A stretch of 58,743 nt of DNA from a virus. Lineage: Duplodnaviria > Caudoviricetes. Shown in pieces: positions 5,602 to 56,650 of this stretch. The first letter of the stretch is position 1. Each line of letters opens with the position of its first letter. Position numbers and translations under genes: made by a program. Location: the IMG/VR virus record IMGVR_UViG_3300011434_000345, positions 1 through 58,743 of that record; one strand, given 5' to 3'. The notes beneath the pieces were generated by a model, which saw only the letters and a program-made list of their open reading frames with translations, was not told the origin of the DNA and ran no database searches.

Positions 5602-5610
5602 GCAGGGCTC

Positions 5611-16258: not shown

Positions 16259-16286
16259 CGACACGACTCCTGCGTCACAAGAAAAC

Positions 16287-21181: not shown

Positions 21182-21183
21182 AA

Positions 21184-21368
21184 AGTTGGCCAAGCTGGAT
21201 AAGTTGGACACCCTGGCCATGTTGGCCATGTTGGCCAAGTTGACGAGCAAGTCTACACTCATGAGTCAACTTGGCCAAGTCATCTTGGCCACTTCTTAGG
21301 GGGGGGGCGAGATGCGGGGACTTGTGGAATCAATCGGTTAGGTTCATGTTGGCCAACTTGGCCAACTT
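21184..21368. repeat. 9-bp TTGGCCA(A/T)G iteron-like array, putative replication origin
   Basis: aagttggcc aagctggat aagttggac accctggcc atgttggcc atgttggcc aagttg, inverted copies at about 21268-21291 and 21345-21368; immediately after the helicase. Confidence 0.7.
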
Positions 21369-23853: not shown

Positions 23854-24328
23854 GAAAAATAACTATCCTCCAAATTGGCAAGCGTTGCGAGCTGAAGTAT
23901 TACGGCTGGCAGAAGATCGTTGTCAATGTACCGGCGAATGTGGCAGCGATCATCGGGTGGATGGGATCCCTGGCAAGCGCTGTGACATCCCAAACCATGC
24001 ACGCATTGTTCGTGACTCAGTGACCCCTGCGCACTGGTGGGAGGAGAGAGACGCCCCGCGGCATCACCTTGGCGATGACTGTAAGGTGGTCACGTGCAGA
24101 CTGACCATCGCGCATCTGTGCCACGAGAGCACCTGTGATAATCTCGAACATTTACGGGCGATGTGCCAGCGGTGCCACTTGGTCTACGACGCAACGCAGC
24201 ATGCAGCGCATGCCATGCAGACCAGGTGGCAACAACGCGACGCTGCTGGGCAAATGAGGCTCTGCCTGCTCGCCGCCGAGGGGCCGCCGCCCGCCAGTCC
24301 CCCCATGCGTGGGAAGGAGTCGCCATGA
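23843..24328 (+). CDS. HNH-like protein
   Basis: YPPNW...RCQC.GECG...LTIAHL.H....NLRAMCQRCHL.YD. Confidence 0.75.
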   Translation: MSFKKNNYPPNWQALRAEVLRLAEDRCQCTGECGSDHRVDGIPGKRCDIPNHARIVRDSVTPAHWWEERDAPRHHLGDDCKVVTCRLTIAHLCHESTCDNLEHLRAMCQRCHLVYDATQHAAHAMQTRWQQRDAAGQMRLCLLAAEGPPPASPPMRGKESP

Positions 24329-24619: not shown

Positions 24620-24967
24620 ATGATTCCCATGTCAGAGAGTATAGCCCATCTGGTGGACCCGGAGTTACGCGGCCTGACCCGCGCCAATGTCTTTGGCCTC
24701 CGTGATCACCTGGCTAAACACTACGCCTACTGGTTCAAAAGTATTCCCATCGACGAACTCTACTCCGCGGGCAACCTCGCCATTGCCGAGACCCTCGCCG
24801 CTGCGCCCGCTGACCTGACACCGACGCAGCTCGCCGCCCTGCTCTATCACGCCATCCGTCATGCCATCCTTGCGGTGTGGCACGAGGAGCATGCGCGTCA
24901 GCACCCCCCCTTCGCCGCCGTGAATGTCGAACGGGTCACGACGAGGAGAGTCCGCCATGCCGCGTAA
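24620..24967 (+). CDS. Sigma-factor region 2-like fragment
   Basis: IDELYSAGNLAIAE...LLYHAIRHAI resembles the EDLIQEGNIGL...TYA..WIRQAI pattern; no region 4 HTH. Confidence 0.4.
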   Translation: MIPMSESIAHLVDPELRGLTRANVFGLRDHLAKHYAYWFKSIPIDELYSAGNLAIAETLAAAPADLTPTQLAALLYHAIRHAILAVWHEEHARQHPPFAAVNVERVTTRRVRHAA

Positions 24968-25268
24968 CCGCGCGCTCCCGCAGGCCGACCCCACGCAACA
25001 CTTGGCGGACAGCATCGCGGCGAAGAAAGCCCAACTGCGCCGCATGGAGGCGCGGCTGCGGGCGACGCACCAGCGAGACCGCCAGGCGCAGTACGTCCGG
25101 GCGGGGAAGATTGTCGAAAGCTGCGGGCTCCTGGATGCATCCAGTGAGGTCCTCCAGGCGGTGCTTCGGGCGGGAGGGGAGTGCGTCGAGCGGCACGTGC
25201 AATGCGCGCCCGCCACCCCCGCACTCCAGGAAGACGCAACGACAAACACTCAGGAGCCCAGGCCATGA
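24957..25268 (+). CDS. TraD/MobC-like relaxosome accessory protein
   Basis: Basic coiled coil then R.R....VRAGKIVESCGLL, resembling the TraD-type LIELGGLVVKAGL motif; upstream of oriT and relaxase. Confidence 0.55.
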   Translation: MPRNRALPQADPTQHLADSIAAKKAQLRRMEARLRATHQRDRQAQYVRAGKIVESCGLLDASSEVLQAVLRAGGECVERHVQCAPATPALQEDATTNTQEPRP

Positions 25269-25474
25269 TGGCGGAAGACGTAACCTCCCTCTTGTACCAG
25301 ACAAAACTGGCAGAGAGCATTGGGCAGGCACGGCGGTTGATTCTCCAGGGGGCCGTGCGGATCAATGGAGTGCCAGTGACAACCCTCGACGCCCAGGTGC
25401 AACGAATCCCTGGCACAATATACCGCGTGCAGTGTGGGAACAAAACGGAAACGTGGACCGTCGCAATCCTGTGA
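25265..25474 (+). CDS. Stand-alone S4 RNA-binding domain
   Basis: LAESIGQARRLILQGAVRING, as in the TyrRS C-terminal S4 domain. Confidence 0.7.
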   Translation: MMAEDVTSLLYQTKLAESIGQARRLILQGAVRINGVPVTTLDAQVQRIPGTIYRVQCGNKTETWTVAIL

Positions 25475-25496
25475 CAGGAAACCCCGAAAATTGAAC

Positions 25497-25530
25497 AAGC
25501 GCGATAACTCATATGTCTACGACATATGAG
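25497..25530. other. Candidate MOBQ-type origin of transfer (oriT)
   Basis: AAGCGCGATAA adjacent to a perfect 10-bp inverted repeat CTCATATGTC-tac-GACATATGAG, 38 nt before the relaxase ATG. Confidence 0.6.
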
Positions 25531-25568
25531 CTCGTAACGCAGGAAAGAAGAAGGAAAGTCAGAGCAAC

Positions 25569-26675
25569 ATGGCCATCGTAAACTTTCGGGTGAACCACCT
25601 GACACAACGGAGTAGCGGGGCAACCAGTCGCGTGGTGCAGTATCTGACACGCGAGGGGCGCTACGCACCGACCCAGGCCGAGGTGGAGTATCTCACCCGG
25701 ACGTCACCGGCGACTGCCGAACGAGACGACCTCGTGTACCAGGAGACGGCGAATCTGCCCCCATGGGCGCACGGAGATGCACAGACGTTTTTTAAGATGG
25801 CTGAACGCATGGAGGGGGAGAACAGACGGTGGGGAACCACCTGGCAGCTCGCATTGCCCAGAGAGCTGGGGCAGGAAGCACAGAGAGCCATGGCCCGCGC
25901 GTTTCTTGAAACGCACTTAGCCAACCATGCGTATCTGTTCGTGATCCACGATCCCGTGAGTGACGCAGGGCAGCATCAGCCGCATGTGCATGTGCTCTTC
26001 AGCGAGCGCGCGCAGCCAGCACACATCCCAGGTCCAACCATGTATTTTAGGAGACCAGAAGCGGGAGGCTGTGCCAAAGATCGCTGGTTGAATCATCGGT
26101 CCGTAGTCACCGAAGTGCGACACGCCTGGTGCGACTGGACCAACTACACCCTCGAGCGGGCGGGGCACGAGGCACGCATTCACCCGAGCAGTCTCTACAA
26201 GCGCAACATTGACCGTCAACCGGAGCCCAAGGTTGGCCCAGGCAAGGACCCGACAGCCATGGCCGAGCGAGCGCGCATCCGCCAAAGCCGAGACGAGGCA
26301 CGCGAGCAGGCCATGGCGGCGGAGGGGTGGGCATTGCGCAAAGCGAAGCTGGGCATCACCGACGTACAGACACTGCCGCCTCCCCAATTTTTAGCCGAGA
26401 GTCGCATACGGGCACGCGGCGTCCAGCCCGGCCAGTGGGCATCGGGCGCCCCGTCACCCCAGCAGCAGACGCAGGCACGCACCAGACGCCAGCGCCAGGC
26501 CATCGAAAGGAGTATGGAGGGCCTGGAAACCGAACTCCGCATTTTGACCAGGCGGCAACAGACACTGCATCTCCCCCGTGCGCCACGGCGAGACCGTGAG
26601 GCCATGGGCGTGGGCTTGCGGGCGAACTTCCGCGAGGAGGACGAGTATGGACGACAGACCGGCTATGGTCGCTAA
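25569..26675 (+). CDS. mobA: MobA/MobL-family (MOBQ) conjugative relaxase
   Basis: Catalytic Tyr in QYLTREG, NLPPWA, LALPREL, HUH motif IHD...QPHVHVLFSER, W....N..LERAG...RI...SL. Confidence 0.93.
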   Translation: MAIVNFRVNHLTQRSSGATSRVVQYLTREGRYAPTQAEVEYLTRTSPATAERDDLVYQETANLPPWAHGDAQTFFKMAERMEGENRRWGTTWQLALPRELGQEAQRAMARAFLETHLANHAYLFVIHDPVSDAGQHQPHVHVLFSERAQPAHIPGPTMYFRRPEAGGCAKDRWLNHRSVVTEVRHAWCDWTNYTLERAGHEARIHPSSLYKRNIDRQPEPKVGPGKDPTAMAERARIRQSRDEAREQAMAAEGWALRKAKLGITDVQTLPPPQFLAESRIRARGVQPGQWASGAPSPQQQTQARTRRQRQAIERSMEGLETELRILTRRQQTLHLPRAPRRDREAMGVGLRANFREEDEYGRQTGYGR

Positions 26676-27051
26676 CAACGCAGCGGCGCGGGGCTGGGAG
26701 CCCAAAGCCCCAGAGCGCGTGTTGCAGGCACTCCGCGCCGACCTCGACCGCTTTCAGGAGGCATGCCTGGCGAAGCTCCGGGAGAACCTGGGGCAGGAGT
26801 TGACCGCACATCACGGAAGAGGCACTGCCGAGATGCGCGAGTGGTACGAAGCCCGCGAAACATTTGTGCGCAACATTTGCGCAGACATGGGGGTGCGCAT
26901 TCAGGACGCGTGTGCTCCCATGTTGGACGTAGCCGCCAAGGTCACGCTCGGGAGACGGACACCGGCAGAGGCGGCGCAGCACCGCATTCAGCACCGCTTG
27001 GATGCCAGGACACAACCACGCCAGGAGCAGGGCTATGGCCACCGCTACTGA
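26647..27051 (+). CDS. Hypothetical protein overlapping the relaxase 3' end
   Basis: 134 aa helical; ends QEQGYGHRY, similar to the relaxase tail RQTGYGR. Confidence 0.55.
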   Translation: MDDRPAMVANNAAARGWEPKAPERVLQALRADLDRFQEACLAKLRENLGQELTAHHGRGTAEMREWYEARETFVRNICADMGVRIQDACAPMLDVAAKVTLGRRTPAEAAQHRIQHRLDARTQPRQEQGYGHRY

Positions 27052-27373
27052 CCTGACCGCGATCAATGAGACACTCGACGATCTGGGCGCCGTGCTAACG
27101 CATCACGGCGACATTCTCACGCACCTGGAGCAGCGCCCCGTGCCTGACATCGCGGGGCTGGCGCGGCGCCTCGAGGACGTCGCGGATGCAGTGGACCGGC
27201 TGCACGCGCCGGAGCCAGCGATACGCCCCTGGTGGTACACCCCGGCAGCGGTGAGTCTCGCTCTGGCGCTCGGGTGGGGGCTCTGTTGGGCGACGGTGCG
27301 CTGGCTGCCGGGGGCACTGTTGCCGCCCGGCTTTACACGGATGGACCCGGTGAAGCAGAAAGGACGGTTTTAG
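27035..27373 (+). CDS. Coiled-coil protein with one TM helix (possibly MobB-like)
   Basis: Heptad N-terminus, then PWWYTPAAVSLALALGWGLCWATV. Confidence 0.5.
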   Translation: MATATDLTAINETLDDLGAVLTHHGDILTHLEQRPVPDIAGLARRLEDVADAVDRLHAPEPAIRPWWYTPAAVSLALALGWGLCWATVRWLPGALLPPGFTRMDPVKQKGRF

Positions 27374-27694
27374 ATGACGGACAAGTATATCCTACAGGGC
27401 ACAACCCCTGTGAAAGAAGAAGACCTGCTCGCATGGGCGCAATGGTTTGAAACAGCCAATCGCCAGGTAGTAGAGACATGGATCCCCCCAGACATTCGTG
27501 TCAGTACGGTTTTTCTAGCGCTCGATTACCAGCGGGACGAGGGGCCGCCGCTCCTCTTTGAAACCATGGTTTTTGGGGGAGCCTGCGACCAGGAACAAGT
27601 ACGCTATAGCACCTGGCACGAGGCGGAACACGGCCACGAAGCGATGGTACTCCGTGTGCACGAGGCGGAACGTGAGTCGGGGGAAAGTGCCTAA
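27374..27694 (+). CDS. Phage-type hypothetical protein
   Basis: VSTVFLALD...PLLFETMVFGG...RYSTW.EAE.GH; I recall this motif from phage genomes, not checked against a database. Confidence 0.65.
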   Translation: MTDKYILQGTTPVKEEDLLAWAQWFETANRQVVETWIPPDIRVSTVFLALDYQRDEGPPLLFETMVFGGACDQEQVRYSTWHEAEHGHEAMVLRVHEAERESGESA

Positions 27695-29013
27695 TGTTTC
27701 GCACCGCGCAAGCCGCCCATGCCCACTGGAGCACCCGTCGCCAACTCCGTCAGGCCGGGCTCTATGCCACTGAGGGGCTCATCCTGGGCACGGCCCACGG
27801 GCGGCTGGTGCGCCACAATGGGCCAGAGCACGCGCTGGTGGTGGCGAGTACGCAGAGCGGCAAGACGGCGAACTTCGTGTATCCCAATCTGTTGACCTGG
27901 CGACAGAGCATGCTGGTGCATGACCCAAAGGAAGAGCTCTTTGCCGAAACAGCGGCCTGGCGCAGCACGTTCTCCCAAGTCGTGCAACTCGCGCCAGCAT
28001 CCTCCCTCTCGCACCACTACAACCCCCTGGATGCGATCCGCCTGGGGACGGAGCAGGAGATCCGGGATGTCCAACTCCTGAGCGAAGCCCTGACGGACCC
28101 GGAAGGGCAGGGGGGCGATAAGCGCAGCGGGGCGAGCCAGCACTTTAGCGAGATGGCGGCCGAGGCGATGGGGGGGCTCATCCTGTATGGGCTCTACACC
28201 CAACGGGCGCGGTCGCTGGGCGCCCTCAACGCCCTGCTCACCGCCACGCCCTTCAAGGCCCTACTGGCAGCGATGAAAGGGTACCCACATGCCGGCATCC
28301 AACGGGCGGCCGCCGTCCTCACGCAGACGGACGGCAGAGACGAGAGTAGCGGCATCTTCAGCACCACGAGTCGCACGTTGCGGCTGTACACCGACCCGCT
28401 CCTGGCCCGCATGACGGACACCAGCGATTTTACCGTGCGGGATCTGCGGGAGCGGGTCCGCCCGATGAGTCTGTACCTGTCGATCTCCTTTGGCGACCAA
28501 GAGCGGCTGCGCGGCTGGACGCGCCTCGTGCTGCGGCAAGTGCTCGATTACTGCGTCTCCAGGAAGGAGGGCTGGACGCATCGGCTGCTGGCCATGATTG
28601 ACGAGGTGCCGGGCTTGAAGCGACTCAATATCCTCACGGATGGGCTCAATTACTTTGCGGGGTATGGGGTCCAGTTGGCACTCATTACGCCGAGCATGAA
28701 GGAACTGGTGGATACCTATGGCGCGAATCATAACTTCCTAGAAGGGTGCAAGATCCAGATCGTCTTTGGCATGCACGACGCCAAAGTGGCAGAAATCTTT
28801 AGCGCCCGCGTGGGGCACACGGAGGTGACGAAGACCAGACAGATGGGACGGCAGCGCGTGAGAGAGCAGGTCAAAGAGGCGCTCTTATCCCCCACGGCCC
28901 TCATGGAGTTGCCGGGGGATTGTGCGCTGGTGATCGTGGGACGCGACAAGGTGATCGCGAAGAAGACCTACTACAAAGCCAATGCGGCCTGGGCCGCAAG
29001 GAGCAGGATGTAG
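27694..29013 (+). CDS. traG: Type IV coupling protein (VirD4/TraG family) lacking N-terminal TM helices
   Basis: EHALVVASTQSGKT..VYPNLLTW..S.LVHDPKEE, YNPLDAIR, TSDF...DL, RLLAMIDEVPGL, YFAGYGV. Confidence 0.92.
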   Translation: MFRTAQAAHAHWSTRRQLRQAGLYATEGLILGTAHGRLVRHNGPEHALVVASTQSGKTANFVYPNLLTWRQSMLVHDPKEELFAETAAWRSTFSQVVQLAPASSLSHHYNPLDAIRLGTEQEIRDVQLLSEALTDPEGQGGDKRSGASQHFSEMAAEAMGGLILYGLYTQRARSLGALNALLTATPFKALLAAMKGYPHAGIQRAAAVLTQTDGRDESSGIFSTTSRTLRLYTDPLLARMTDTSDFTVRDLRERVRPMSLYLSISFGDQERLRGWTRLVLRQVLDYCVSRKEGWTHRLLAMIDEVPGLKRLNILTDGLNYFAGYGVQLALITPSMKELVDTYGANHNFLEGCKIQIVFGMHDAKVAEIFSARVGHTEVTKTRQMGRQRVREQVKEALLSPTALMELPGDCALVIVGRDKVIAKKTYYKANAAWAARSRM

Positions 29014-29015
29014 TT

Positions 29016-29597
29016 ATGTTCAAGCACTACATCAATAAGATAGGCAATAGAACTCTAGTCAAAATAGGATCGAAGGCAGCACAAAGAGAATCACTCACGA
29101 GTGGCCGAATCACGAGAGCCGAATGGCTGCGATTTATGAGCAATATAGTCATGAATGAGCCCTGTTTATGCACGCCAGAAACCCCGCATTTTCATTGGCT
29201 CTGGCAAGGGAAAAGGATCAAAAACTATGGACGATTCATGTGGCGTGGGGTGGGGATATACGCCCATGTCTTTGCCTGGGTAGCATTGCGCGGGGCTCTT
29301 GCGGAAGGCATGGTGCGGGATCACCTCTGCAAGATCAAACATTGCTGCAACCCAGCATGTCTAGAAGAAGTCACGAGCGGAGAAAATACGCGGAGAGGAG
29401 AGACAACGTTAGCGGCGCAACAACTCTTGCAAACACATTGCAAGCGGGGGCATCTGCTCGACGGAGACAATCTCGTGCCCAATGGGCTGCGACGAGGTAA
29501 ACGCTGGTGCAAGATATGTAGAAATGCACGGTCGAAAGAATCAAAACAGCCGCTGCGTCAGCAGGCGCGGCAAGAAAGGGCGAAGAATGCAGCCTAA
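29016..29597 (+). CDS. HNH endonuclease inserted in the transfer operon
   Basis: WLWQG...YGRF...AH..AW...DHLC....CCNP..LE.VT..EN.RRG...THCKRGH; lower GC. Confidence 0.85.
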   Translation: MFKHYINKIGNRTLVKIGSKAAQRESLTSGRITRAEWLRFMSNIVMNEPCLCTPETPHFHWLWQGKRIKNYGRFMWRGVGIYAHVFAWVALRGALAEGMVRDHLCKIKHCCNPACLEEVTSGENTRRGETTLAAQQLLQTHCKRGHLLDGDNLVPNGLRRGKRWCKICRNARSKESKQPLRQQARQERAKNAA

Positions 29598-30021
29598 AAC
29601 TGAGTTTATACTGACAAGTGCCATACTGGCAGTTTCGTGTGCTTCCTATGCTTTTGGAAATACGGGGCTTCCCTGGGAGTCGGGATTGCAGACCGTAGCC
29701 AACAGTATTTCGGGGCCAGCCGGGGGCGCGGTGTGTACGGCCGGGATTGCCTGGTCCGGCTTTAATTGTTATCGCGGGACGGAGCACGGCAAAGAAGCCC
29801 TCATTAGCGCGGGCTTTGGCACGGGTATTGTGATGGGCTCGCCGCGCATTGTCTCGCTCCTCGGGGGCGGGGCCAGTGGCGCAGGGCTCGACGTGGCCCC
29901 CCTCCTCCCCCTGGCGACGGTGCTGAGTGACCTCGTGGGCGAACTGCTCGGGCATGGCGTGTACGCGGCCTGGCTATTTGGCGGGCTGCTGCTGCCCCTC
30001 GCATGGAGGAAACAGGGATGA
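29587..30021 (+). CDS. trbC: TrbC/VirB2 pilin
   Basis: Signal peptide, then GLPWESGLQTVANSISGP and hydrophobic segments. Confidence 0.8.
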   Translation: MQPKTEFILTSAILAVSCASYAFGNTGLPWESGLQTVANSISGPAGGAVCTAGIAWSGFNCYRGTEHGKEALISAGFGTGIVMGSPRIVSLLGGGASGAGLDVAPLLPLATVLSDLVGELLGHGVYAAWLFGGLLLPLAWRKQG

Positions 30022-30287
30022 CCGACATCCCCGGCTTTGCAGCGCCGTGTTACCACAGCCTGACCCAGCCGCACCTGCTGGCGGGGGTGCCCCGGAGCTT
30101 CTTCATTCTGGACGTGGTAGCGATGATGCTCTGGGGCTTGTGGTGTCTGGTCTATCCGGCGCTGTGGCCGGGGGTATTCGTGGGCATCACCGTGTACGCC
30201 GTGGTGTGGTGCGGCACCAAGTACGATACGGACTTTTTTGACATCCTCATCGAGCACGTCGGGCACGCGCATCACTACGAAGGGTAA
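30018..30287 (+). CDS. trbD: TrbD/VirB3
   Basis: IPGF..P.YHSLTQP.LLAGVPR, two TM segments, K.D..FFDIL..H. Confidence 0.88.
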   Translation: MTDIPGFAAPCYHSLTQPHLLAGVPRSFFILDVVAMMLWGLWCLVYPALWPGVFVGITVYAVVWCGTKYDTDFFDILIEHVGHAHHYEG

Positions 30288-30293
30288 CGAGGT

Positions 30294-32552
30294 ATGTGGT
30301 TGAAGGAAGTACGGAAAGAGCACCATCGGCTCTCCGAGTTACTGTTCTGGGATTGCCTGGAAGACGCCCCGGGCGTGGTCCTCCAGAAGGACGGCAGCCT
30401 GCTCGCCGTGATCCGGTTCCGTGGCCCGGACCTGGCGTCCGCGCTGGACGCTGAGCTGGTCGCGCAGGCCGCCCGGCTCAATACCCTGTGCAAGCGCTTC
30501 ACGAGCGGCTGGGCGCTCTTCAGCGAGGCCCAGCGCCGGGAAGTGCGGACCTACCCCGCGGCCACGTGGCCGGACCCGGTGAGTCGCCTGGTGGATCAGG
30601 AGCGCCGCCAGCATTTCACGGCCCCTGAGCGTCACTACGAGACACACACGTATCTTACCCTCGTCTACGCGAAGCCTCGGGAAGCCGTCAGCATGTGGAG
30701 ACGGTGGTTGTTCGACAATCTTCCGAGCACCGACCCGGATACCCATACGCTGGGGTATTTTGTAGACGAGGTGCAGCGCACGCTGGATCTGCTCCGGGAC
30801 TGTTGTCCAGAAGCCGACCTCCTCACCGCCGAGGAGACCACGCCAGGGCAGTCGCCCCTTCTCACCTATCTGCATAGCACCGTGAGTCCCACGGCGCATC
30901 CGGTGGGCCTGCCCGCCGAGACGAGCTATCTCGATACCCTCCTCACCGACACGGACCTCTACACCGGCCTGTATCCGAGTTGGGGCGATCCGCAGGACCC
31001 ACTCACGTTCGCGGGGTATCTCGCATGTCTCAGTGTGCGCAGCTATCCCGACGCCACGTATCCAGGCATCCTCGATGTGCTCAATCAGTTGCCGATGGCC
31101 TACCGGGCGGTCCTGCGGTATCTGCCCCTCGACGCCCCCCACGCGGCGCGGGAGATTTACAAGTACCGCCGCAAGTGGTTGGGGGCCACCAAGCGCACGA
31201 GTACCCTCCTGGCGGAAAAATTCAGCAAGCAGCCGAGTGCCCTGGTGGAACACGCAGCCGTCGCGTACATGGACGAAGGGGGTGAGGCGCAAGCGCAGGT
31301 GGAGCATGGGTATGTGAGCTTCGGGTATCTCAGCAATACGATTGTCCTCTGGGATAAGGGATTCGAGACGCTGAGCCGGAAGGTCAAAGACGTAGAAGCA
31401 GCACTGACGGGCCTGGGGTGCGTGGTGAAAGTCGAGGACCTGAACGCCTGTGCCGCCTGGCGGGGCACGATTCCCGGCGATGTGTACAGCAACGTGCGGC
31501 GGCCCCTCTTGCACTCGATGAACCTGGCGCATCTGCTACCCGCGACGGCCCCGTGGAGTGGCCCGCAGGAGAACACGCATCTGCACGGGCCGCCGCTGCT
31601 GCGCACGACCGGACGGGGGCAGACCCCGTTTAACCTCGATACCTACGAGGGGGATGTCGGGATGGCCTACATCGCAGGCCCGATTGGCAGCGGCAAGTCC
31701 ACGCTCCTCGCCACCATGGTCATGGCCTGGCTCAAATACCCCGGCGCCGAGGTCAAAATCTTCGACACCGGGCAAAGCCTCCGCTGCGCCACGTATGCCA
31801 TGGGTGGACAGTGGTACGACGTCGCCGCCGAATTGAAACGGCAAGCAGGGCAGCAGGGCGCCCGCCTCGATGATCGCGCGACGAAGCCCTGGGGCGCGCC
31901 CTGGATGCCCCCGACCGCGCGGTGGCAGTGTTTCGAGATGGAGGACCTCTTAAAGACGCCCGACGTGCTGCCCACGGTCATGGGGCCACTCCTCCAGACC
32001 CTCAAGGAACGCATGACGGGCGCCCCCACGCTGTTTGTCTTTGACGAAGGACATCTCTATTTGAAGCAGCAGGTGCTCATGGATGGCATTGACGACTATA
32101 TCCGTGGGCTGCGGAAGAAGAACGGGGCCGTGCTTGTCGCGACCCAGAGCATTGCCGATGCGACCCGCAGCGCCCTGGCCCCGATCATCAGTGACTCGGC
32201 GATGACGCGGTTCTTTCTCGCCAACTTTCATGCCCTCGAGCACGACACCGCAGCACTGTACGAGGGGTGGGGGCTGAACGAGCGTGAAAGGCAGATCATC
32301 GCCGGGCTCGTGCCCAAGCGTGAATACTACTACCAGGGGCGGCATGGACGGCGAGTCTTTGAGCTATCGCTCGGGCCGGTCGGGCTGGCGTTCGCCGGGG
32401 CCAGTCGCAAGGCGGACCTGGCGGCGATGACGGCACTGTACCAGGGAGACCCCATGCAATTTGCCCTCGACTGGCTCCATGCACGGGGCCTGCATCATGA
32501 GGCCGATTATCTCAAGAGTGAAGGGTATGCAACGAAGGAGAAGGCTCTATGA
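30294..32552 (+). CDS. trbE: TrbE/VirB4 ATPase
   Basis: PGVVLQKDGS...FRGPDL.SA, D.ERR..F..HYE, W.G.IPG..Y.NVRRP, Walker A GPIGSGKS, Walker B FVFDEG, LRKKN..V..ATQS. Confidence 0.95.
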   Translation: MWLKEVRKEHHRLSELLFWDCLEDAPGVVLQKDGSLLAVIRFRGPDLASALDAELVAQAARLNTLCKRFTSGWALFSEAQRREVRTYPAATWPDPVSRLVDQERRQHFTAPERHYETHTYLTLVYAKPREAVSMWRRWLFDNLPSTDPDTHTLGYFVDEVQRTLDLLRDCCPEADLLTAEETTPGQSPLLTYLHSTVSPTAHPVGLPAETSYLDTLLTDTDLYTGLYPSWGDPQDPLTFAGYLACLSVRSYPDATYPGILDVLNQLPMAYRAVLRYLPLDAPHAAREIYKYRRKWLGATKRTSTLLAEKFSKQPSALVEHAAVAYMDEGGEAQAQVEHGYVSFGYLSNTIVLWDKGFETLSRKVKDVEAALTGLGCVVKVEDLNACAAWRGTIPGDVYSNVRRPLLHSMNLAHLLPATAPWSGPQENTHLHGPPLLRTTGRGQTPFNLDTYEGDVGMAYIAGPIGSGKSTLLATMVMAWLKYPGAEVKIFDTGQSLRCATYAMGGQWYDVAAELKRQAGQQGARLDDRATKPWGAPWMPPTARWQCFEMEDLLKTPDVLPTVMGPLLQTLKERMTGAPTLFVFDEGHLYLKQQVLMDGIDDYIRGLRKKNGAVLVATQSIADATRSALAPIISDSAMTRFFLANFHALEHDTAALYEGWGLNERERQIIAGLVPKREYYYQGRHGRRVFELSLGPVGLAFAGASRKADLAAMTALYQGDPMQFALDWLHARGLHHEADYLKSEGYATKEKAL

Positions 32553-33316
32553 AAAAGGGTGGACTGTCCTTGCTATTCCTCGTGGTGCTGCCGGGCTTCG
32601 CCCATGCAGGCGGCCTCCCGGTCTACGACGGGGTGGCTGATATCACTGCCAAATGGAATGCGATACAACGAACGGCGGCCGAAGTGCGCGCCTACGCACA
32701 ACTCATCAAGAGCTACGAAAACGACATACGCGGCGTCTACAACACGGGGGAAATGGTCTATCAGGGCTCGAAGCAGCTTGTGTCGATGCCGAAAGACCTC
32801 TCCGTCATGGGCCTGCTCTACCATTACGATAGTGCCGCCGCCCGCCTTACTGGCATGGTCAGCACCTCGACCACGACCATGGGCCGCATTTACGACCAGG
32901 TAGGCACGGTGGCTACGGCCGAGGGCCGCGCCACGCTCCTCCAAGACATGCAGACAGAACGGACCCGCCTCATGCAAATCCTCATTGTCGCCAAGACCGA
33001 CCAGCAGTGGATTGCCGACGCCCAAAAACGCCTGCGGGACATCGCGCAGGCGGCCACCGACGCCGAGGGACAAAAAGCCGTGGCGCAGGCGATTGCCCAA
33101 GCCGCTGCCATGCAGGCCGCGCACACCAAGCAGGTGCAGGCATGGGATGAGGCCGTGGCGAAAGTGGCGCTGCTCGAGAAGTTGGAGCAGCAGGCCCTCC
33201 GCGAGGCCCAGGCCCTGAAGGCCCAGGAGGACGCCAGGAGCTGGTATGCCACGCGGCCGATGGCACTCCCAGGGAACTTTCACGGCTTCATGCTGACCCC
33301 GCAGGGAGGACGCTAG
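32549..33316 (+). CDS. trbJ: TrbJ/VirB5-like protein
   Basis: Signal peptide (AHA), GLPVYD, Q/A-rich helices, AEGQ.AVAQA; lies between trbE and trbL. Confidence 0.65.
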   Translation: MKKGGLSLLFLVVLPGFAHAGGLPVYDGVADITAKWNAIQRTAAEVRAYAQLIKSYENDIRGVYNTGEMVYQGSKQLVSMPKDLSVMGLLYHYDSAAARLTGMVSTSTTTMGRIYDQVGTVATAEGRATLLQDMQTERTRLMQILIVAKTDQQWIADAQKRLRDIAQAATDAEGQKAVAQAIAQAAAMQAAHTKQVQAWDEAVAKVALLEKLEQQALREAQALKAQEDARSWYATRPMALPGNFHGFMLTPQGGR

Positions 33317-33319
33317 CGT

Positions 33320-34267
33320 ATGCTGTTGTTCGATCTCCTCAGTGCGTTCCAGGCCGTGCTCAGTCTCGGCATGCACACTGCAGGCCCGGTGACGGCCCGC
33401 TTGTTTATGCTCTTGGCCACCCTGGAAATGGCCGCCCTCGGGCTGTGGTGGGTGTACAGCCATGACAACACCATGGGTCTGGTCATGTTCCGCGTGCTGA
33501 CGATTGCTGTGTTCCTGTGGCTCATGCAAGACTGGCAGACCATCACGGGCGCGATGCAGGAGAGTTTTATGCGGCTGGGCCTCCTGGTGGGCGGCAATCA
33601 GCTCGGCATGGGACCGATGCACAAGGCTGGCATGGCCCTCATCGAGAAAGGCCAGGAGTTGTTTCTGGCCATCCAGGGCAAGACGCTGGACCCGACCTGG
33701 CTGCAACATCTCGGCAATACGGTGAGTGACCTCACCCTGGGGCCGACGGGCTGGAGTCGGCTCATCCTGGCCTGGATGGTCCTCTTCGCGTTCCTGATTG
33801 CGGGGATTCACGTCTTTGCGGTGCAGCTGGAATTTGTGTTCTGTAGCGCCATGGCGTTTATCACCATCCCCTTTGCGGTCTGGCACCGCACGGCCTGGGT
33901 CAGTGAACGCACCTTTGGCGCGGTGGTGGGCTCGGGCCTGAAGCTGGCCTTTCTCTACATGCTGGCGAGTGCGAGTATCCCGGTACTGCGACAGTATGTC
34001 GCCCCCGCCGTGCCCACGCAGCAAGACAGCCTGTCTATGCTCGGCGCGGGGGGGTTGATCTTGTTTCTGCAATGGGGTGCCCACAAGCTGGCCAGTGGCA
34101 TCCTACACGGCATGCCGTCTTTTACCCAGAGCGATGTATTGCCCCCCATGCGCTCGGTGGTCTCGCTCGGGACAGTGGGGCTGGCAGCCGGGGCACGCGG
34201 CCTCACGAGCGCGGCCCACGGGGCGGCACGGCTGGGCAGTCTGGTTGCCCAGCGAAGGAGACCCTAA
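33320..34267 (+). CDS. trbL: TrbL/VirB6 inner-membrane channel protein
   Basis: Polytopic; LEF......ITIPFAVW..T.W.SERTFG.VV.SGLKL. Confidence 0.88.
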   Translation: MLLFDLLSAFQAVLSLGMHTAGPVTARLFMLLATLEMAALGLWWVYSHDNTMGLVMFRVLTIAVFLWLMQDWQTITGAMQESFMRLGLLVGGNQLGMGPMHKAGMALIEKGQELFLAIQGKTLDPTWLQHLGNTVSDLTLGPTGWSRLILAWMVLFAFLIAGIHVFAVQLEFVFCSAMAFITIPFAVWHRTAWVSERTFGAVVGSGLKLAFLYMLASASIPVLRQYVAPAVPTQQDSLSMLGAGGLILFLQWGAHKLASGILHGMPSFTQSDVLPPMRSVVSLGTVGLAAGARGLTSAAHGAARLGSLVAQRRRP

Positions 34268-34404
34268 TGCGCAAGACCCTCTGGACAAGCGTGAGAATCC
34301 TGGGCTGGGCCGCGTGGGGCGCAGGCATAGGCATTGTCGCCCTGCTCGCCATTCCGGTCGCGATCCTCTGTCTACTGCCGAAACAACGAGGGGGGTGGCT
34401 ATGA
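34267..34404 (+). CDS. 45-aa membrane peptide between trbL and trbF
   Basis: TAATG and ATGA coupling on both sides; ILGWAAWGAGIGIVALLAIPVAILCLL. Confidence 0.5.
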   Translation: MRKTLWTSVRILGWAAWGAGIGIVALLAIPVAILCLLPKQRGGWL

Positions 34405-35072
34405 TCGCCCCCAACGTGACCCCGACCGGCACGCTCGACACGCCCGCCATGCGCGGCAAGCGCCACCGCGCCGACGAGCTAGGCGAGCGGGTCATGATCG
34501 CCCGCAACTACCGCTATGCCCTCTATCTGGCGCTGCTCGGCAACCTCCTGGCCCTGGGGGTCGTGGGCCTCCTCGTCCAGCGGCCCCGCGATGTGGTGTA
34601 CATCGAACGCGATGTGCCCACCGGGGGGATGCAGGTGCTCGCCACCGGGGAGCGCCCTCCGGCCCTCAGTGAGGCGACCATCAAGAAAGAACTGCGGGAG
34701 TTCGTGCAGACCATGCGCCGGGTCCACGACGCCAAAGCCCTCATGCAAGAGGAGTGGAAAGCCCTCTTTAAGAAAGTCACGCCCCGCGGCTATCGGCAGC
34801 TCAGTGCCGAGGCCAGCGCCATGAATCCCCTGGCACTGGAGGGCACCATCACCGTTGAGATACTTCAGGTGCTGAAGCGCGATGAACGGGCCTACGACCT
34901 GCGGTGGAAGGAGACGCGCCTGAGCAACGACGGCGGGCAGATTGGCCAGCACACGTATCGCGGGCTCTTTCTGTGGGTGCCCCGCGACCCCAAGCAGCCC
35001 GTGAGCCTGGATGTCCTCACGGCCAACCCTTCTGGTGTCGAATGGGACACCTGGTCCTGGAGCGAGGAATGA
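34401..35072 (+). CDS. trbF: TrbF/VirB8
   Basis: TP..RG.....E.GE....ARNYR, one TM helix, L..FV...R, Y.LRWKE, NPSG.....SWSEE. Confidence 0.85.
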   Translation: MIAPNVTPTGTLDTPAMRGKRHRADELGERVMIARNYRYALYLALLGNLLALGVVGLLVQRPRDVVYIERDVPTGGMQVLATGERPPALSEATIKKELREFVQTMRRVHDAKALMQEEWKALFKKVTPRGYRQLSAEASAMNPLALEGTITVEILQVLKRDERAYDLRWKETRLSNDGGQIGQHTYRGLFLWVPRDPKQPVSLDVLTANPSGVEWDTWSWSEE

Positions 35073-36286
35073 CCCAACCCCTGACCCCGCGACGGCCCGG
35101 GCGTGCGGTCACACGGTTCAGTACCCGCGCCCTCCTGGTGGGGGGCGCCCTCCTGGTCCTCCTCATCCTCGGCGGCGTCCTCCTGCCCCTGACGTGGCAG
35201 CGGGGCACGCCCGCCGTCGCCACGGAGCCGCCTACCCCTCAGCGTCTGAGCGTGCCTGAGGTGATCACCCGGCCGCTGCCCGCACGGATGACCCCTACCG
35301 CCGCCCCCATTGTGCAGGACCCCGTGCCCATCATCCAGGCGCAGCCGGATACGACGCCCGACACCGGGCGGGTAATCCGGCAGCAGAGTTTCCTGGAGAC
35401 GCTCAACCCGTTTGCCACGCAGGCGGTCCCGGTGCCGAAGGAGCCGCCGGCCGCGCAGACATCTCCCTCACCAACAAGCAAGGCAACCCCCACCGCCCCG
35501 AAGGAGCCTCCGCCGCGCAAAGGCTGGGCGGTCTTGGCGACACCCAAGCAACGCGAGCCGCAGCCGGGCATGACGCCGGTGGGGCTCCCAGGGCATGAGG
35601 AGAGGCCCTCTGAGATCCCCGTCGCCACGCAGGGGCAACATGGGACAGGCGCAGCGCAGAATCTCATCCAGCCTGCCCGCTGGGCGATCCCCGCGCAACC
35701 GCTGAAGACGATCTACCGCAGTCAGACCTTGACGGGCAGGCTGTTGCAAGCAGTGAATAGCGACATCCCTGGTGGGCAAGTGAAGATGCAGTTGACCACG
35801 CCGGTCCTAGATCGCTTTGGCTACGATACGGTCATCCTGCCGAAAGATACATTGATTATCGCGAGCCAGGATACCGCAGTTCGGTACGGAACCACGCGCC
35901 TCGGCCTCAAGATAGAGCAGTTGGAGCTGCCCTCTGGGGAAGTCATTGCGGTGCAAGCGATGGTCGGGGATCAGAGTGGAGCCAACGGGGTGCCAGGGAA
36001 GGTGAACAATCACCTGGGGAAAGTCATCCTCGCCACAGGGTTGTCGGCCATCCTCAATATCGGGGTACGGACGGCCACAGGGACGCCTGGCGCGGGACAA
36101 TTCTTCCAAAATCCGATCCAACAAACCGGAGCGGATATTGGGCAGGCGGTCCAGCGGGATACCCAGAGCATCATTGACAGGGAACTCAGGGTACCCCCGA
36201 CAGTGACCATTCCAGCGGGAACCTTCTGCACCATCAACTTGACGGAGAATATCACCTTTGCCAGACCACCAGTGATGGCACGCTAG
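35069..36286 (+). CDS. trbI: TrbI/VirB10
   Basis: TM helix, Pro-rich linker, L..AVNSDIPG, VILPKDT.II, DQSGANG..G.VNNH, VPPTVTIPAG. Confidence 0.88.
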   Translation: MTQPLTPRRPGRAVTRFSTRALLVGGALLVLLILGGVLLPLTWQRGTPAVATEPPTPQRLSVPEVITRPLPARMTPTAAPIVQDPVPIIQAQPDTTPDTGRVIRQQSFLETLNPFATQAVPVPKEPPAAQTSPSPTSKATPTAPKEPPPRKGWAVLATPKQREPQPGMTPVGLPGHEERPSEIPVATQGQHGTGAAQNLIQPARWAIPAQPLKTIYRSQTLTGRLLQAVNSDIPGGQVKMQLTTPVLDRFGYDTVILPKDTLIIASQDTAVRYGTTRLGLKIEQLELPSGEVIAVQAMVGDQSGANGVPGKVNNHLGKVILATGLSAILNIGVRTATGTPGAGQFFQNPIQQTGADIGQAVQRDTQSIIDRELRVPPTVTIPAGTFCTINLTENITFARPPVMAR

Positions 36287-36293
36287 GAGCCCT

Positions 36294-36986
36294 ATGCGAA
36301 AAACTACCCATCTCTTCATCTGTGCACTTTTCCTCAGTGGCTGCACCCTGGCTCCCGAGCCCGTGCCCCCAACGCTCCCGATGCCGGAGCCAGCGCCTGT
36401 GGCAAGTGACACTTTTGCCCCGCCCTACTGTCCGCTGGACCGGGTAGAAATTGCGCTGCTGCCCCGCGAGGCCGCGATTCGTCCCTTTGCGAAGCCCATT
36501 GCAGCCCTGGAGAAGAAAGCCCCCAAGCCCCAGACCCCTGCCCAGCTCGTCACCCACGCGCAGCAGGCGGCACGGGTCGAGCCCAGCGAGCGCGGCTACC
36601 ACGGAGGCAGTGGGGAACAGGTGTATCAGTGGGCAGCAGGGAAGGTGTACACAGTCTATCTCTCGAAGCAGCAAGGCACCGGGATCTTCCTGCCGCTTGG
36701 GGAGCGGCTCGTGAGTGGCTTGTACTTAGATCAAGATGCGTTTGAGGTCAAGACGGAACGGGCTGGGACCGGCGATGCGGCGTATGATGCGCTCACGGTG
36801 CGGCCCCTCACGGACCGTGGGGAAGTCTCGACATTTGTGCTGACGGAGTCTGGCAGGCGCTACTTGCTCCATTTTGTGGTGGGGCAGACGGGCATGTTGG
36901 CCGTCACCTTCGAGGGGTTGCCTGTCGCAACACCGGTGCGAGTCGCCGCAGAGCCGCCACTGATCCTGCCACGGCCGACCCCCTGA
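36294..36986 (+). CDS. trbG: TrbG/VirB9-like lipoprotein, C-terminally shortened
   Basis: Lipobox LSGC; A..AARVEP...GY....QVY.W..G.VY.VY......T.I.L..GERL, V.T..RRYLL. Confidence 0.75.
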   Translation: MRKTTHLFICALFLSGCTLAPEPVPPTLPMPEPAPVASDTFAPPYCPLDRVEIALLPREAAIRPFAKPIAALEKKAPKPQTPAQLVTHAQQAARVEPSERGYHGGSGEQVYQWAAGKVYTVYLSKQQGTGIFLPLGERLVSGLYLDQDAFEVKTERAGTGDAAYDALTVRPLTDRGEVSTFVLTESGRRYLLHFVVGQTGMLAVTFEGLPVATPVRVAAEPPLILPRPTP

Positions 36987-56641: not shown

Positions 56642-56650
56642 CGGCGGCTC

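What the first reader, a model, noticed from the sequence alone, without database searches (positions are those of the whole stretch)
24957..36986. Temperate P22-like phage carrying its own conjugation system (phage-ICE hybrid)
Seen: one closed 58.6 kb circle holds an apparently intact podovirus packaging and virion set, integrase and cI/cro, plus a MOBQ relaxase, candidate oriT, VirD4/TraG and eight Trb genes, none with frameshifts or internal stops. There is only one recombinase, no plasmid partition or initiator gene, and no transposase or direct repeats that I could find bounding the module. Known: relaxase + T4CP + MPF define conjugative plasmids and ICEs, and tailed phages normally lack them. 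Inference: after excision this element could either package into virions or transfer itself as ssDNA by cell contact, so one replicon would have two transmission routes.
Basis: partly seen in the sequence, partly recalled or inferred. Interest (0 to 1): 0.95.

Follow-up and report, generated by a model that had tools for sequence, protein, structure and literature searches.

The report
Tailed phage carrying a conjugation machine
A circular 58.6-kb virus-like genome from freshwater sediment joins the head and packaging genes of a P22-type phage to a compact but nearly complete bacterial mating (conjugation) apparatus, and diverged relatives keep the same layout, so the element may spread both as a virus and by cell contact.

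Summary
The window is a closed 58,620-bp circle (123-bp exact end overlap). It carries a P22-type virion set: TerS, TerL, portal, scaffold, coat, gp4/gp10-like connectors and ejection proteins. It also carries one tyrosine recombinase and a cI-like repressor. A tightly packed 13-kb block on the + strand holds a MOBQ relaxase, a coupling protein, and VirB2, 3, 4, 5-like, 6, 8, 10 and 9-like genes.

It is not a chimera. An independent re-assembly spans both junctions at even depth. A diverged relative (portal 85%, VirB4 90%, coupling protein 57% aa) keeps both junctions. Conjugation genes (dN/dS 0.07-0.35) and virion genes (0.04-0.31) are both under purifying selection.

Caveats:
- There is no VirB11/TrbB.
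- The coupling protein lacks its membrane anchor.
- No lysis genes were recognised.
- The genome is 15-25 kb larger than those of the listed phages and the longest contigs that carry related capsid genes.
- The "tailspike" is a secreted protein.

Best reading: a stable single-replicon phage-conjugative hybrid. Use of both transmission routes is inferred, not shown. I found no such lineage in the papers searched; only co-integrates and phage-ICE tandems turned up.

The parts
1..123 (.). Terminal direct repeat, identical to 58621-58743. It marks a closed circle of 58,620 bp.
   Evidence: Exact 123-nt match. Classed as DTR. An ORF reads across the junction.
23344..24328 (+). Two HNH-endonuclease-like ORFs (23344-23853 and 23843-24328) at the left edge of the conserved block.
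   Evidence: phrog_3377, E 4e-49, and phrog_1571, E 8e-16. The second ORF is 69% identical to an ORF just upstream of the relaxase in G001.
25508..25530 (.). Perfect 10-nt inverted repeat with a 3-nt spacer, 39 nt upstream of the relaxase start. Candidate oriT hairpin, or an operator.
   Evidence: Repeat found. In relative G003, 9 of 10 pairs are kept, with changes on both arms at 4 pairs and conserved flanks (read from the alignment). No nick site is known.
25569..26675 (+). MOBQ-class relaxase, 368 aa.
   Evidence: MobA_MobL, E 3e-19. MobQ and TraA_Ti N-terminal domain hits, both below cut-off. Aligns to MobA (PDB 2ns6) with the His-x-His block and an aligned Tyr. dN/dS 0.13-0.26.
27035..27373 (+). 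112-aa protein with one C-terminal membrane helix, always found just upstream of the T4CP.
   Evidence: Conserved in 5 of the 5 distinct related sequences that cover this position (43-82% aa). Its role as a T4CP anchor is inferred only.
27374..27694 (+). 106-aa ORF of unknown function, variable among relatives.
   Evidence: Present in G003/L021 (61% aa). Absent in L019 and G001.
27694..29013 (+). Type IV coupling protein (VirD4/TraG-like), 439 aa, without an N-terminal membrane domain.
   Evidence: T4SS-DNA_transf, E 1.7e-58. Aligns to positions 108-548 of the 667-position IncP TraG profile. Walker A and B motifs kept. No hydrophobic segment. dN/dS 0.11-0.29.
29016..29597 (+). HNH_3 homing-type endonuclease inserted between the T4CP and pilin genes.
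   Evidence: HNH_3, E 6e-8. Absent in G003/L021. Contigs in runs X1 and X2 skip 29011-29661.
29587..30021 (+). TrbC/VirB2 pilin with a signal peptide.
   Evidence: PF04956, E 1e-13. TrbC NCBIfam hit below cut-off.
30003..30287 (+). VirB3/TrbD.
   Evidence: PF05101, E 1.8e-7. Two hydrophobic segments.
30294..32552 (+). VirB4/TrbE ATPase, 752 aa.
   Evidence: TrbE NCBIfam, 714 bits against a cut-off of 1020. Walker A and B present. 41-42% identical to plasmid TrbE. 90% aa identical to L021, dN/dS 0.07.
32549..33316 (+). TrbJ/VirB5-like secreted protein.
   Evidence: Assigned by position in the operon, a signal peptide and a weak TrbJ_Ti hit, E 0.005.
33320..34267 (+). TrbL/VirB6.
   Evidence: PF04610, E 1.3e-18. 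Four hydrophobic segments.
34401..35072 (+). TrbF/VirB8.
   Evidence: PF04335, E 2e-16. TrbF NCBIfam hit below cut-off. Start codon re-checked.
35069..36286 (+). TrbI/VirB10.
   Evidence: PF03743, E 1e-29.
36294..36986 (+). VirB9/CagX-like lipoprotein; last gene of the block.
   Evidence: CagX, E 2e-6, below cut-off. Lipobox visible in the translation. 61% aa identical to G001 and 75% to L021.
38756..39832 (-). Tail fibre with a C-terminal S74 intramolecular chaperone domain.
   Evidence: PF13884, E 2.6e-9. Its homologue lies directly after VirB9 in L021.
39843..44105 (-). Secreted ~1420-aa Big_7 / beta-helix protein. It is not a virion spike.
   Evidence: Pfam domains. Sec signal peptide in this protein and in one of two G001 homologues.
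52443..58150 (-). Three large ejection or internal-virion proteins. The first (52443-54872) has an N-terminal lytic transglycosylase domain.
   Evidence: SLT, E 1.8e-25. Domain placed as in T7 gp16 chains. phrog_598 'DNA ejection' for 56651-58150.
1428..3553 (-). gp10-like head-closure protein (1428-3125) and a gp4-like adaptor (2846-3553). The two ORFs overlap as called.
   Evidence: phrog_578, E 2e-100. phrog_12985, plus a weak Ad3 hit.
4351..6537 (-). P22-type coat protein (4351-5601) and scaffold protein (5611-6537).
   Evidence: PF11651, E 9e-32. phrog_8865, E 1e-28. dN/dS 0.04-0.19.
6722..8833 (-). P22-type portal.
   Evidence: PF16510, E 4e-140.
9221..11315 (-). Terminase large subunit (9221-10744) and small subunit (10677-11315).
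   Evidence: phrog_2 and phrog_5902; phrog_4044. 39-50% aa identical to phage TerL proteins.
14853..16324 (-). Tyrosine recombinase (14853-15725, 290 aa) and cI-like HTH repressor (15860-16324).
   Evidence: PF00589, E 2e-25. HTH_3 and HTH_31.
19814..21368 (+). AAA_25 helicase/primase-like protein (19814-21181) followed by iteron-like 9-nt repeats (21182-21368). Possible origin of replication.
   Evidence: PF13481, E 4e-29. phrog_10729. Repeat family D1.

Best explanation
The window is the complete circular genome of a stable single-replicon hybrid. It is a P22-type podovirus backbone that carries a compact Trb-type (MPF-T-like) type IV secretion system, a coupling protein and a MOBQ relaxase. 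These sit at the far end of its rightward early arm.

Shown:
- The linkage is real and old.
- Both gene sets have been kept by selection since the window lineage and the G003/L021 lineage split.

Inferred mechanism:
1. When the cI-like repressor is lifted, rightward transcription runs through the replication genes into the relaxase and T4SS operon. Every called gene from 16.9 to 37.0 kb is on the + strand.
2. The relaxase nicks at an oriT near the conserved hairpin at 25508-25530.
3. The soluble coupling protein, perhaps held at the membrane by the small membrane protein encoded just upstream, hands the relaxase-ssDNA complex to a VirB11-less VirB2-B10 channel.
4. A single strand of the whole element enters a recipient and is re-circularised. 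It is then kept by the tyrosine recombinase or by the helicase/iteron replicon.
5. The late arm makes P22-type particles by headful packaging.

The element would therefore have two routes of horizontal spread.
For: Closed circle.

Not a chimera:
- In a separate assembly of run X1, one contig (22899-27418, depth 7.19) spans the left junction and another (29746-39303, depth 7.38) spans the right one. Depth is 7.2-10.8 in all 30 bins from 22 to 41 kb, and 7.2-9.0 up to 39.1 kb. X1 may be the source sample, so this tests the assembler, not the sample.
- Relative G003 with metagenome locus L021 is collinear with the window. The order runs portal, TerL, recombinase, relaxase, T4CP, pilin, VirB3-B9, tail fibre. 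The two share 3054 identical nt. Amino-acid identities to the window are portal 85%, TerL 96%, VirB4 90%, T4CP 57% and relaxase 66%.

Selection: dN/dS is 0.07-0.35 for the 13 block genes compared against G003 or L021, and 0.04-0.31 for 7 virion genes compared against G002, G003 or G004.

Catalytic motifs are intact: the relaxase His block and an aligned Tyr against MobA 2ns6, and Walker A and B in both T4CP and VirB4.

Operon packing is tight.

The hairpin upstream of the relaxase keeps 9 of 10 pairs in G003 through 4 double changes.

The T4CP belongs to a distinct clade of 42 other clusters at 41% identity or more, all from metagenomes. The next relatives are at 34% or less. None closer than 32% was found in 185,579 species genomes.
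Against: Against the conjugation route:
- No VirB11/TrbB ATPase in G000, G001 or G003.
- The T4CP lacks the membrane domain that its ~545-aa clade relatives still have.
- VirB5 and VirB9 are only weakly recognised.
- All NCBIfam hits fall below their equivalog cut-offs.
- No nick site, pilin-maturation gene or entry-exclusion gene was identified.

Against the virion route:
- The genome is 58.6 kb. The 30 listed of 82 phage records with a related coat gene are 33-40 kb. The 25 listed of 110 with a related portal gene are also 33-40 kb. Portal relatives at 53-54% identity sit on contigs of at most 42-44 kb. A head of the ancestral size could not hold the whole genome.
- No endolysin or holin was recognised among the candidate ORFs.

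Other limits:
- dS is often above 1, so the dN/dS values are rough.
- Promoter and terminator scans were no better than shuffled sequence, so co-transcription with the early genes is conjecture.
- No RNA, virion or mating data exist.
Confidence: 0.55

Rival explanations
1. Conjugative element with a captive head. The block made the genome too long for its P22-type capsid, so conjugation is the only route that moves the whole element. The particles carry sub-genomic pieces, as a gene-transfer agent does, or serve another role.
For: 58.6 kb against 33-40 kb for the listed phages with related coat or portal genes, and against 42-44 kb longest contigs for portal relatives at 53-54% identity. No lysis genes were recognised. 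Removing the helicase-to-VirB9 stretch (19.8-37.0 kb) would leave about 41 kb, a usual P22-type size (arithmetic).
Against: Virion genes are under purifying selection as strong as that on the conjugation genes, at 0.04-0.31. Related elements recur at 55.6, 58.7 and 62.2 kb, which looks like a set genome size. A larger capsid lattice would solve the problem and cannot be excluded from sequence.
Confidence: 0.2
2. The secretion system does not transfer the element on its own. It is either helper-dependent, borrowing an ATPase or anchor from a co-resident plasmid, or it serves another task such as DNA release or protein delivery by the lysogen.
For: No VirB11. A T4CP with no membrane domain. Weak VirB5 and VirB9 calls. 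A large secreted beta-helix protein and other signal-peptide proteins travel with the block in both G000 and G001.
Against: A relaxase with intact catalytic motifs and a conserved hairpin beside it is the hallmark of DNA transfer. The VirB11-less, anchor-less layout is the same in all three lineages examined and is under purifying selection. At least 25 clusters of T4CPs are 430-451 aa long.
Confidence: 0.15
3. Recent or transient co-integrate: a P22-type prophage sitting in a small conjugative plasmid, or an excised phage-ICE tandem. On this reading it is not one integrated genome.
For: On the circle the conjugation genes form one contiguous block. G001 carries the same block with none of the window's virion proteins, so the block moves between backbones.
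Against: There is one tyrosine recombinase among 60 ORFs scanned. No att-like repeats flank the block. The block has no regulator of its own. Both junctions are kept in a relative whose genes have diverged to dS 0.6-2.4.
Confidence: 0.07
4. Assembly chimera of a phage and a plasmid or ICE from the same sample.
For: Metagenome origin. Depth is only about 7x.
Against: The Logan re-assembly bridges both junctions at even depth. G003 (29.5 kb), L021 (from a 55.6-kb contig) and G002, filed under other record names, show the same joins. GC content is similar across the modules.
Confidence: 0.03

Closest known systems
P22-type podoviruses with PF16510 portals (nearest listed: Rhodoferax phage P26218, Xanthomonas phage PBR31, EBPR podovirus 1, Pseudomonas phage PAE2)
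   Same: Portal, coat, scaffold, TerS/TerL, gp4/gp10-like connectors and ejection proteins, in the usual order.
   Different: Only 31-38% aa identity. Those genomes are 33-40 kb, against 58.6 kb here. None of the 50,697 phage records holds a relative of this VirB4 except 4 unannotated faecal contigs. The best of these shares only T4SS genes with the window.
IncP/Ti Trb-type (MPF-T) conjugation systems of proteobacterial plasmids and ICEs
   Same: TrbC-D-E-J-L-F order, with TrbI, a TraG-type T4CP and a relaxase. TrbE is 41-42% identical to plasmid TrbE, for example in Hydrogenophaga, Pseudomonas and Caulobacter plasmids.
   Different: No TrbB/VirB11. The T4CP lacks its membrane domain and C-terminal tail. 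The VirB10 and VirB9 genes are in swapped order. The relaxase is small and MOBQ-type. All hits fall below the equivalog cut-offs.
MobA of R1162/RSF1010 (PDB 2ns6), the MOBQ prototype
   Same: The relaxase domain aligns over 166 residues, with the His-x-His block and a Tyr. An AAA_25 helicase also lies in the genome. That this Pfam family includes the IncQ RepA helicase is recalled, not tested.
   Different: No primase fusion. The element encodes its own T4SS, whereas IncQ plasmids are only mobilisable (recalled).
Phage-plasmids and 'conjugative phage-plasmid' co-integrates (e.g. E. coli p1002-1)
   Same: Virion genes and plasmid or conjugation genes on one molecule. p1002-1 is described as a fusion of a conjugative plasmid and a phage-plasmid (10.1101/2025.03.14.643293, passages read).
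   Different: [quoted passage not shown] Here the block is small, has no replicon or integrase of its own, and is conserved in a diverged relative.
Phage-ICE tandems (Streptococcus and others)
   Same: A prophage that can ride a conjugation machine (PMC13651849, abstract read).
   Different: Those are two elements accreted side by side, each complete. Their authors describe them as 'rather than a hybrid element'. Here there is one recombinase, no internal att repeats, and a block that cannot stand alone.
SXT/R391-type ICEs with a lambda-cI-like repressor (recalled, not tested)
   Same: A possible logic in which a phage-type repressor gates the transfer genes.
   Different: Those ICEs have no virion genes. 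The regulatory link here is conjecture.

Membership tests
P22-type tailed phage (virion module) | P22-type portal and coat proteins | tested here: met
   PF16510, E 4e-140, and PF11651, E 9e-32.
P22-type tailed phage (virion module) | Terminase pair, scaffold, gp4/gp10-type connectors, ejection proteins | tested here: met
   PHROG hits. SLT ejection protein. The gp4-like call is weak.
P22-type tailed phage (virion module) | Genome length that fits the capsid of the lineage (about 33-44 kb in relatives) | tested here: not met
   58.6 kb against 33-40 kb and 42-44 kb contigs. The capsid geometry itself cannot be tested here.
P22-type tailed phage (virion module) | Lysis cassette (holin and endolysin) | tested here: inconclusive
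   No hit for the 8 ORFs at 11.3-14.9 kb in PHROGs, for the ORFs of that stretch scanned in Pfam, or for 2 of them in PDB. The genes may be of unknown families.
Self-transmissible conjugative element (relaxase + T4CP + VirB4 + MPF genes; definition recalled from CONJscan practice) | Relaxase with catalytic motifs | tested here: met
Self-transmissible conjugative element (relaxase + T4CP + VirB4 + MPF genes; definition recalled from CONJscan practice) | VirB4 ATPase | tested here: met
   TrbE and VirB4 hits. Walker motifs.
Self-transmissible conjugative element (relaxase + T4CP + VirB4 + MPF genes; definition recalled from CONJscan practice) | Coupling protein with ATPase domain | tested here: met
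Self-transmissible conjugative element (relaxase + T4CP + VirB4 + MPF genes; definition recalled from CONJscan practice) | Coupling protein anchored by an N-terminal membrane domain | tested here: not met
   No hydrophobic segment. The match starts at profile position 108. Clade relatives of ~545 aa have the domain.
MPF-T / Trb type | VirB2, B3, B6, B8 and B10 homologues in one operon | tested here: met
MPF-T / Trb type | VirB11/TrbB traffic ATPase | tested here: not met
   PF00437 finds nothing over its cut-off in G000, G001 or G003, although the control genomes ring.
MPF-T / Trb type | Scores above the curated NCBIfam equivalog cut-offs | tested here: not met
   For example TrbE 714 bits against 1020, and TraG 274 against 674. 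These are divergent relatives, not equivalogs.
MPF-T / Trb type | oriT with a mapped nick site | tested here: inconclusive
   Conserved hairpin with compensatory changes. No nick consensus was tested.
Phage-plasmid | Plasmid replication initiator and partition genes | tested here: inconclusive
   AAA_25 helicase plus iteron-like repeats. No ParA or ParB among the 60 ORFs scanned in Pfam. A recombinase is present.
Phage-ICE tandem | Two complete units, each with its own integrase and att sites | tested here: not met
   One recombinase. No flanking repeats beyond chance-length matches.

The most novel reading that the evidence does not exclude
This is a lineage of tailed phages for which conjugation is a regular, selected second route of transmission, or even the main one. 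On this reading the prophage can move cell to cell without killing its host and without needing the phage receptor. It uses a pared-down VirB11-less T4SS with a soluble coupling protein. Its P22-type head has either been enlarged to hold about 60 kb or now packages sub-genomic DNA. That would make it a true 'conjugative virus' rather than a co-integrate.
Probability: 0.4. Interest if true: 0.9.

Novelty: new variant of a known kind. Interest (0 to 1): 0.8.

Why it matters
Mobile elements are sorted by how they travel, in capsids or through mating pores. The papers read here treat the two routes as alternatives. Conjugation genes are reported as rare in phage-plasmids, and phage-ICE pairs are described as separate units.

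A stably inherited genome that keeps both machines under selection would:
- blur that divide;
- let a prophage escape receptor-based host range and defences;
- offer a natural system for asking why the two routes so seldom co-exist, with capsid size limits as one candidate reason;
- warn that virus/plasmid classifiers and completeness estimators mis-file such elements.

The anchor-less coupling protein and the VirB11-less Trb system are also of interest for how minimal a working T4SS can be.

Tried and rejected
- **Chimera:** rejected.
- **Flanking att repeats:** none found; only 14-28-nt chance-like matches.
- **tRNA or attP:** no tRNA in the window. attP was not located.
- **Promoters and terminators:** counts were no higher than in shuffled sequence, so no operon boundary could be set.
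- **G001 as a second phage backbone:** it shares the conjugation block, the secreted beta-helix proteins and a few small ORFs. It shares none of 20 window virion or lysogeny proteins, apart from a weak HTH match (phmmer, E<1). Among 20 of its ORFs scanned I found a TerL, a ParB, methylases, helicases and HNH genes, but no capsid or portal. Its nature is open, and I do not count it as a phage.
- **'Tailspike':** rejected as a virion protein because of its signal peptide.
- **Faecal 'Bacteriophage sp.' contig MT836721.1 with a 40% VirB4:** it shares only T4SS genes with the window, so it is not evidence of another phage-T4SS hybrid.
- **Complex prediction of the T4CP with the upstream 112-aa membrane protein:** no verdict (score 0.00). 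The anchor idea stays an inference.
- **The look-up of sequencing runs:** no RNA holder was listed. Runs X2-X4 hold only small shares (0.07-0.09) as short pieces at 90-99% identity. I draw no conclusion about habitat or expression from them.
- **Host:** not identified. No T4CP relative above 32% was found in the species genomes.
- **PLSDB:** all 12 plasmids with a related portal are non-mobilizable, and the portal identity is only 22-27%, so this says little.
- **Literature:** searches found no description of a tailed-phage lineage with its own T4SS. Supplementary tables could not be seen and may list such cases. Examples are Supplementary Table 3 of 10.64898/2025.12.20.690322, which mentions 'conjugative phage-plasmids', and the P-P tables of PMC7969092 and PMC10123127.

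Full report
**What is there.** The window is a virus record of 58,743 bases whose first and last 123 bases are identical. It is therefore a circle of 58,620 bp, and an ORF reads straight through the join. GC content is about 63% throughout, except for a low-GC island at 48-52 kb.

**Gene content.** I scanned 60 ORFs in Pfam, 30 in PHROGs and 10 in NCBIfam.

The minus-strand arm holds these genes:
- a tyrosine recombinase and a cI-like HTH repressor;
- TerS, TerL, a P22-type portal (E 4e-140), scaffold and P22-type coat;
- gp4-like and gp10-like connectors;
- three large ejection proteins, one with an N-terminal transglycosylase placed as in T7 gp16;
- a tail fibre with an S74 chaperone domain.

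The plus-strand arm runs from about 16.9 kb to 37.0 kb. In order it holds:
- small early genes, a VRR-NUC nuclease and an AAA_25 helicase, followed by iteron-like repeats;
- two HNH genes;

That block consists of a MOBQ relaxase, a small membrane protein, a 106-aa ORF, a VirD4/TraG-type coupling protein and an HNH endonuclease. After these come VirB2, VirB3, VirB4, a TrbJ-like protein, VirB6, VirB8, VirB10 and a VirB9-like lipoprotein. From VirB3 to VirB9 the genes overlap or lie within 7 nt of each other, with one 130-nt gap.

**Is the join real?** Three lines of evidence say yes.

1. Independent assembly. Contigs built by a different pipeline from run X1 cover 22-41 kb. Depth is 7.2-9.0 as far as 39.1 kb and rises to 10.8 in the 39.1-40.4 kb bins. 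One contig (22899-27418) crosses the left junction and one (29746-39303) crosses the right junction. X1 may be the source sample, so this tests the assembler rather than the sample.

2. A diverged relative keeps both junctions. IMG/VR record G003 (29.5 kb) has a portal 85% identical to the window's, and at its other end a T4CP 57% identical. At nucleotide level it is collinear with the window from portal, TerL and TerS through the lysogeny region to the relaxase, the two small ORFs, the T4CP and the pilin. Metagenome locus L021 comes from a 55.6-kb contig, and its first 3054 nt are identical to G003. It continues from the T4CP through VirB3, VirB4 (90% aa) and on to VirB9 (75%), then straight into the homologue of the S74 tail fibre. 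G002 and G004 cover the head region of the same or nearer relatives.

3. Matching contig lengths. In the protein database, the portal cluster at 85% identity and the T4CP cluster at 57% identity both have a longest contig of 62,219 bp. This suggests another assembly with both genes, but I could not fetch it to check.

**Are the genes kept by selection?** Pairwise dN/dS (NG86) for the conjugation genes against G003 or L021:

| Gene | dN/dS |
|---|---|
| VirB4 | 0.07 |
| VirB9 | 0.12 |
| Relaxase | 0.13 |
| VirB10 | 0.15 |
| Pilin | 0.16 |
| VirB6 | 0.17 |
| TrbJ-like | 0.19 |
| VirB8 | 0.20 |
| VirB3 | 0.20 |
| T4CP | 0.28 |

Against the closer L019, the T4CP gives 0.15.

For virion genes against G002, G003 or G004:

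| Gene | dN/dS |
|---|---|
| Coat | 0.04-0.07 |
| TerL | 0.06 |
| Portal | 0.09-0.13 |
| gp10-like | 0.13 |
| Scaffold | 0.16-0.19 |
| TerS | 0.27 |
| Ejection protein | 0.31 |

dS is often above 1, so the ratios are rough. Even so, neither set looks relaxed. Both lineages carry both modules in the same places, so both modules have been maintained since they split.

**Function-relevant details.**
- Relaxase. It aligns to the MobA relaxase domain (2ns6) with the His-x-His block and an aligned tyrosine.
- ATPase motifs. T4CP and VirB4 both keep Walker A and B.
- Candidate oriT. A perfect 10-nt inverted repeat lies 39 nt upstream of the relaxase start. In G003, 9 of 10 pairs survive, 4 of them through changes on both arms, between conserved flanks. 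This is what an oriT hairpin would look like, though an operator is not excluded.
- No VirB11. None is found in G000, G001 or G003, and the collinear L021 leaves no room for one.
- T4CP without an anchor. It matches positions 108-548 of the 667-position IncP TraG profile and has no hydrophobic segment.
- T4CP clade. It belongs to a clade of 42 other database clusters at 41% identity or more, all from metagenomes. Most of those listed are 418-458 aa long. A deeper set is 512-553 aa, and the four I fetched still carry two N-terminal membrane helices. The next relatives, ordinary TraG/VirD4 of about 610-635 aa, are at 34% or less. No species genome among 185,579 has a relative above 32%. Loss of the anchor is therefore a derived and conserved trait.
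- Possible anchor in trans. A 112-aa protein with one membrane helix precedes the T4CP in 5 of the 5 distinct related sequences that cover the position. A complex prediction gave no verdict.

**What argues for caution.**
- Genome size. The element is far larger than its capsid relatives. The 30 listed of 82 phage records with a related coat gene, and the 25 listed of 110 with a related portal gene, are 33-40 kb. Portal relatives at 53-54% identity sit on contigs of at most 42-44 kb. Members of the hybrid lineage recur at 55.6, 58.7 and 62.2 kb; G001, which shares only the conjugation block, is 59.6 kb.
- Consequence of the size. Either the head has grown or whole genomes cannot be packaged. 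Sequence alone cannot tell which.
- Lysis. No holin or endolysin was recognised.
- The 1438-aa protein. This Big_7/beta-helix protein looked like a tailspike, but it has a Sec signal peptide. It is shared, with a paralogue, with G001.
- G001. It carries the same conjugation block in the same order (relaxase 41%, T4CP 65%, VirB4 48%, VirB9 61% aa). It carries none of the window's virion proteins. It has a TerL, a ParB and helicases, but I found no capsid gene. The block therefore moves between backbones, and G001 cannot be counted as a second phage.
- Replication region. It differs between the window and G003.

**How it most likely works.** See Best explanation. The steps shown are the structure, the conservation and the intact motifs. 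Regulation by the repressor, nicking at the hairpin, docking of the soluble T4CP, transfer of the whole circle, and packaging are all inferred.

**Comparison with what is known.**
- The virion module is a distant member of the P22-type group.
- The T4SS is a divergent Trb-type (MPF-T-like) system. Its TrbE is 41-42% identical to plasmid TrbE, but every NCBIfam hit is below its equivalog cut-off.
- From the literature I read passages or abstracts only. [quoted passage not shown] One 'conjugative phage-plasmid', p1002-1, is described as a plasmid fusion (10.1101/2025.03.14.643293). 612 phage-ICE tandems are described as two cooperating elements 'rather than a hybrid' (PMC13651849, abstract). PMC5154133 describes the Streptococcus 'conjugative prophage' Phi1207.3 as a prophage that transfers by conjugation (passage read; PMC4260502 seen only as a search listing).
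- My four searches found no report of a tailed-phage lineage that stably carries its own relaxase, T4CP and T4SS.

**Verdict.** The finding is real and unusual: a stable phage-conjugative hybrid genome from freshwater sediment. Dual transmission is plausible and selected-looking, but it is untested. The capsid-size mismatch, the missing VirB11 and the anchor-less T4CP are the points on which it could fail.

Noticed in passing
window 29011-29661: The HNH_3 endonuclease gene between the T4CP and pilin genes is present in some copies and absent in others. Contigs in runs X1 (depth 2.9) and X2 (depth 3.3) skip it, and G003/L021 lack it. It looks like a homing endonuclease active in the population.
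   Followed up: partly
window 21182-21368: Seven copies of a roughly 9-nt-period repeat (family D1) lie directly after the AAA_25 helicase gene, with a terminator-like hairpin at 21348-21366. This is a likely iteron-type origin.
   Followed up: no
window 39843-44105 (-), 48197-48541 (-): A giant secreted Big_7/beta-helix (NosD/pectate-lyase-like) protein and a small signal-peptide protein are shared with G001, which has a paralogue. They travel with the conjugation block, not with the virion genes. They may act on the cell surface or on exopolysaccharide, or in mating.
   Followed up: partly
window 48553-52140: A low-GC island (48-52% against 63%) holds a methyltransferase, a group-1 glycosyltransferase and unknown ORFs. 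It may be surface-modification cargo. The 387-aa ORF at 50977-52140 is 50% identical to one in G001.
   Followed up: no
window 58154-58672 (-) and 58614-58743/1-563 (-): A GNAT acetyltransferase and an Asp/Arg beta-hydroxylase (cupin) sit inside the virion gene row, between the connector and ejection genes.
   Followed up: no
window 25569-26675: The relaxase N-terminus holds two near-copies of a short Tyr-containing motif about 16 residues apart, seen in the translation. HMMER aligned the second to the MobA tyrosine. Which is catalytic is open.
   Followed up: no
G001 (L006) 28834-32082: The VirB4 ORF of G001 is 1082 aa against 752 aa here, and only 481 residues align. It may carry a large insertion, possibly an intein or another HNH-type insert.
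   Followed up: no
window 25266-25475 (+): A small ORF just upstream of the candidate oriT overlaps a minus-strand ORF call. It is unannotated and was not scanned.
   Followed up: no
whole record: The completeness figure given for this closed circle is 61%. G001, which is linear and for which I found no capsid gene, is given 100%. Such hybrids seem to confuse completeness estimators.
   Followed up: no
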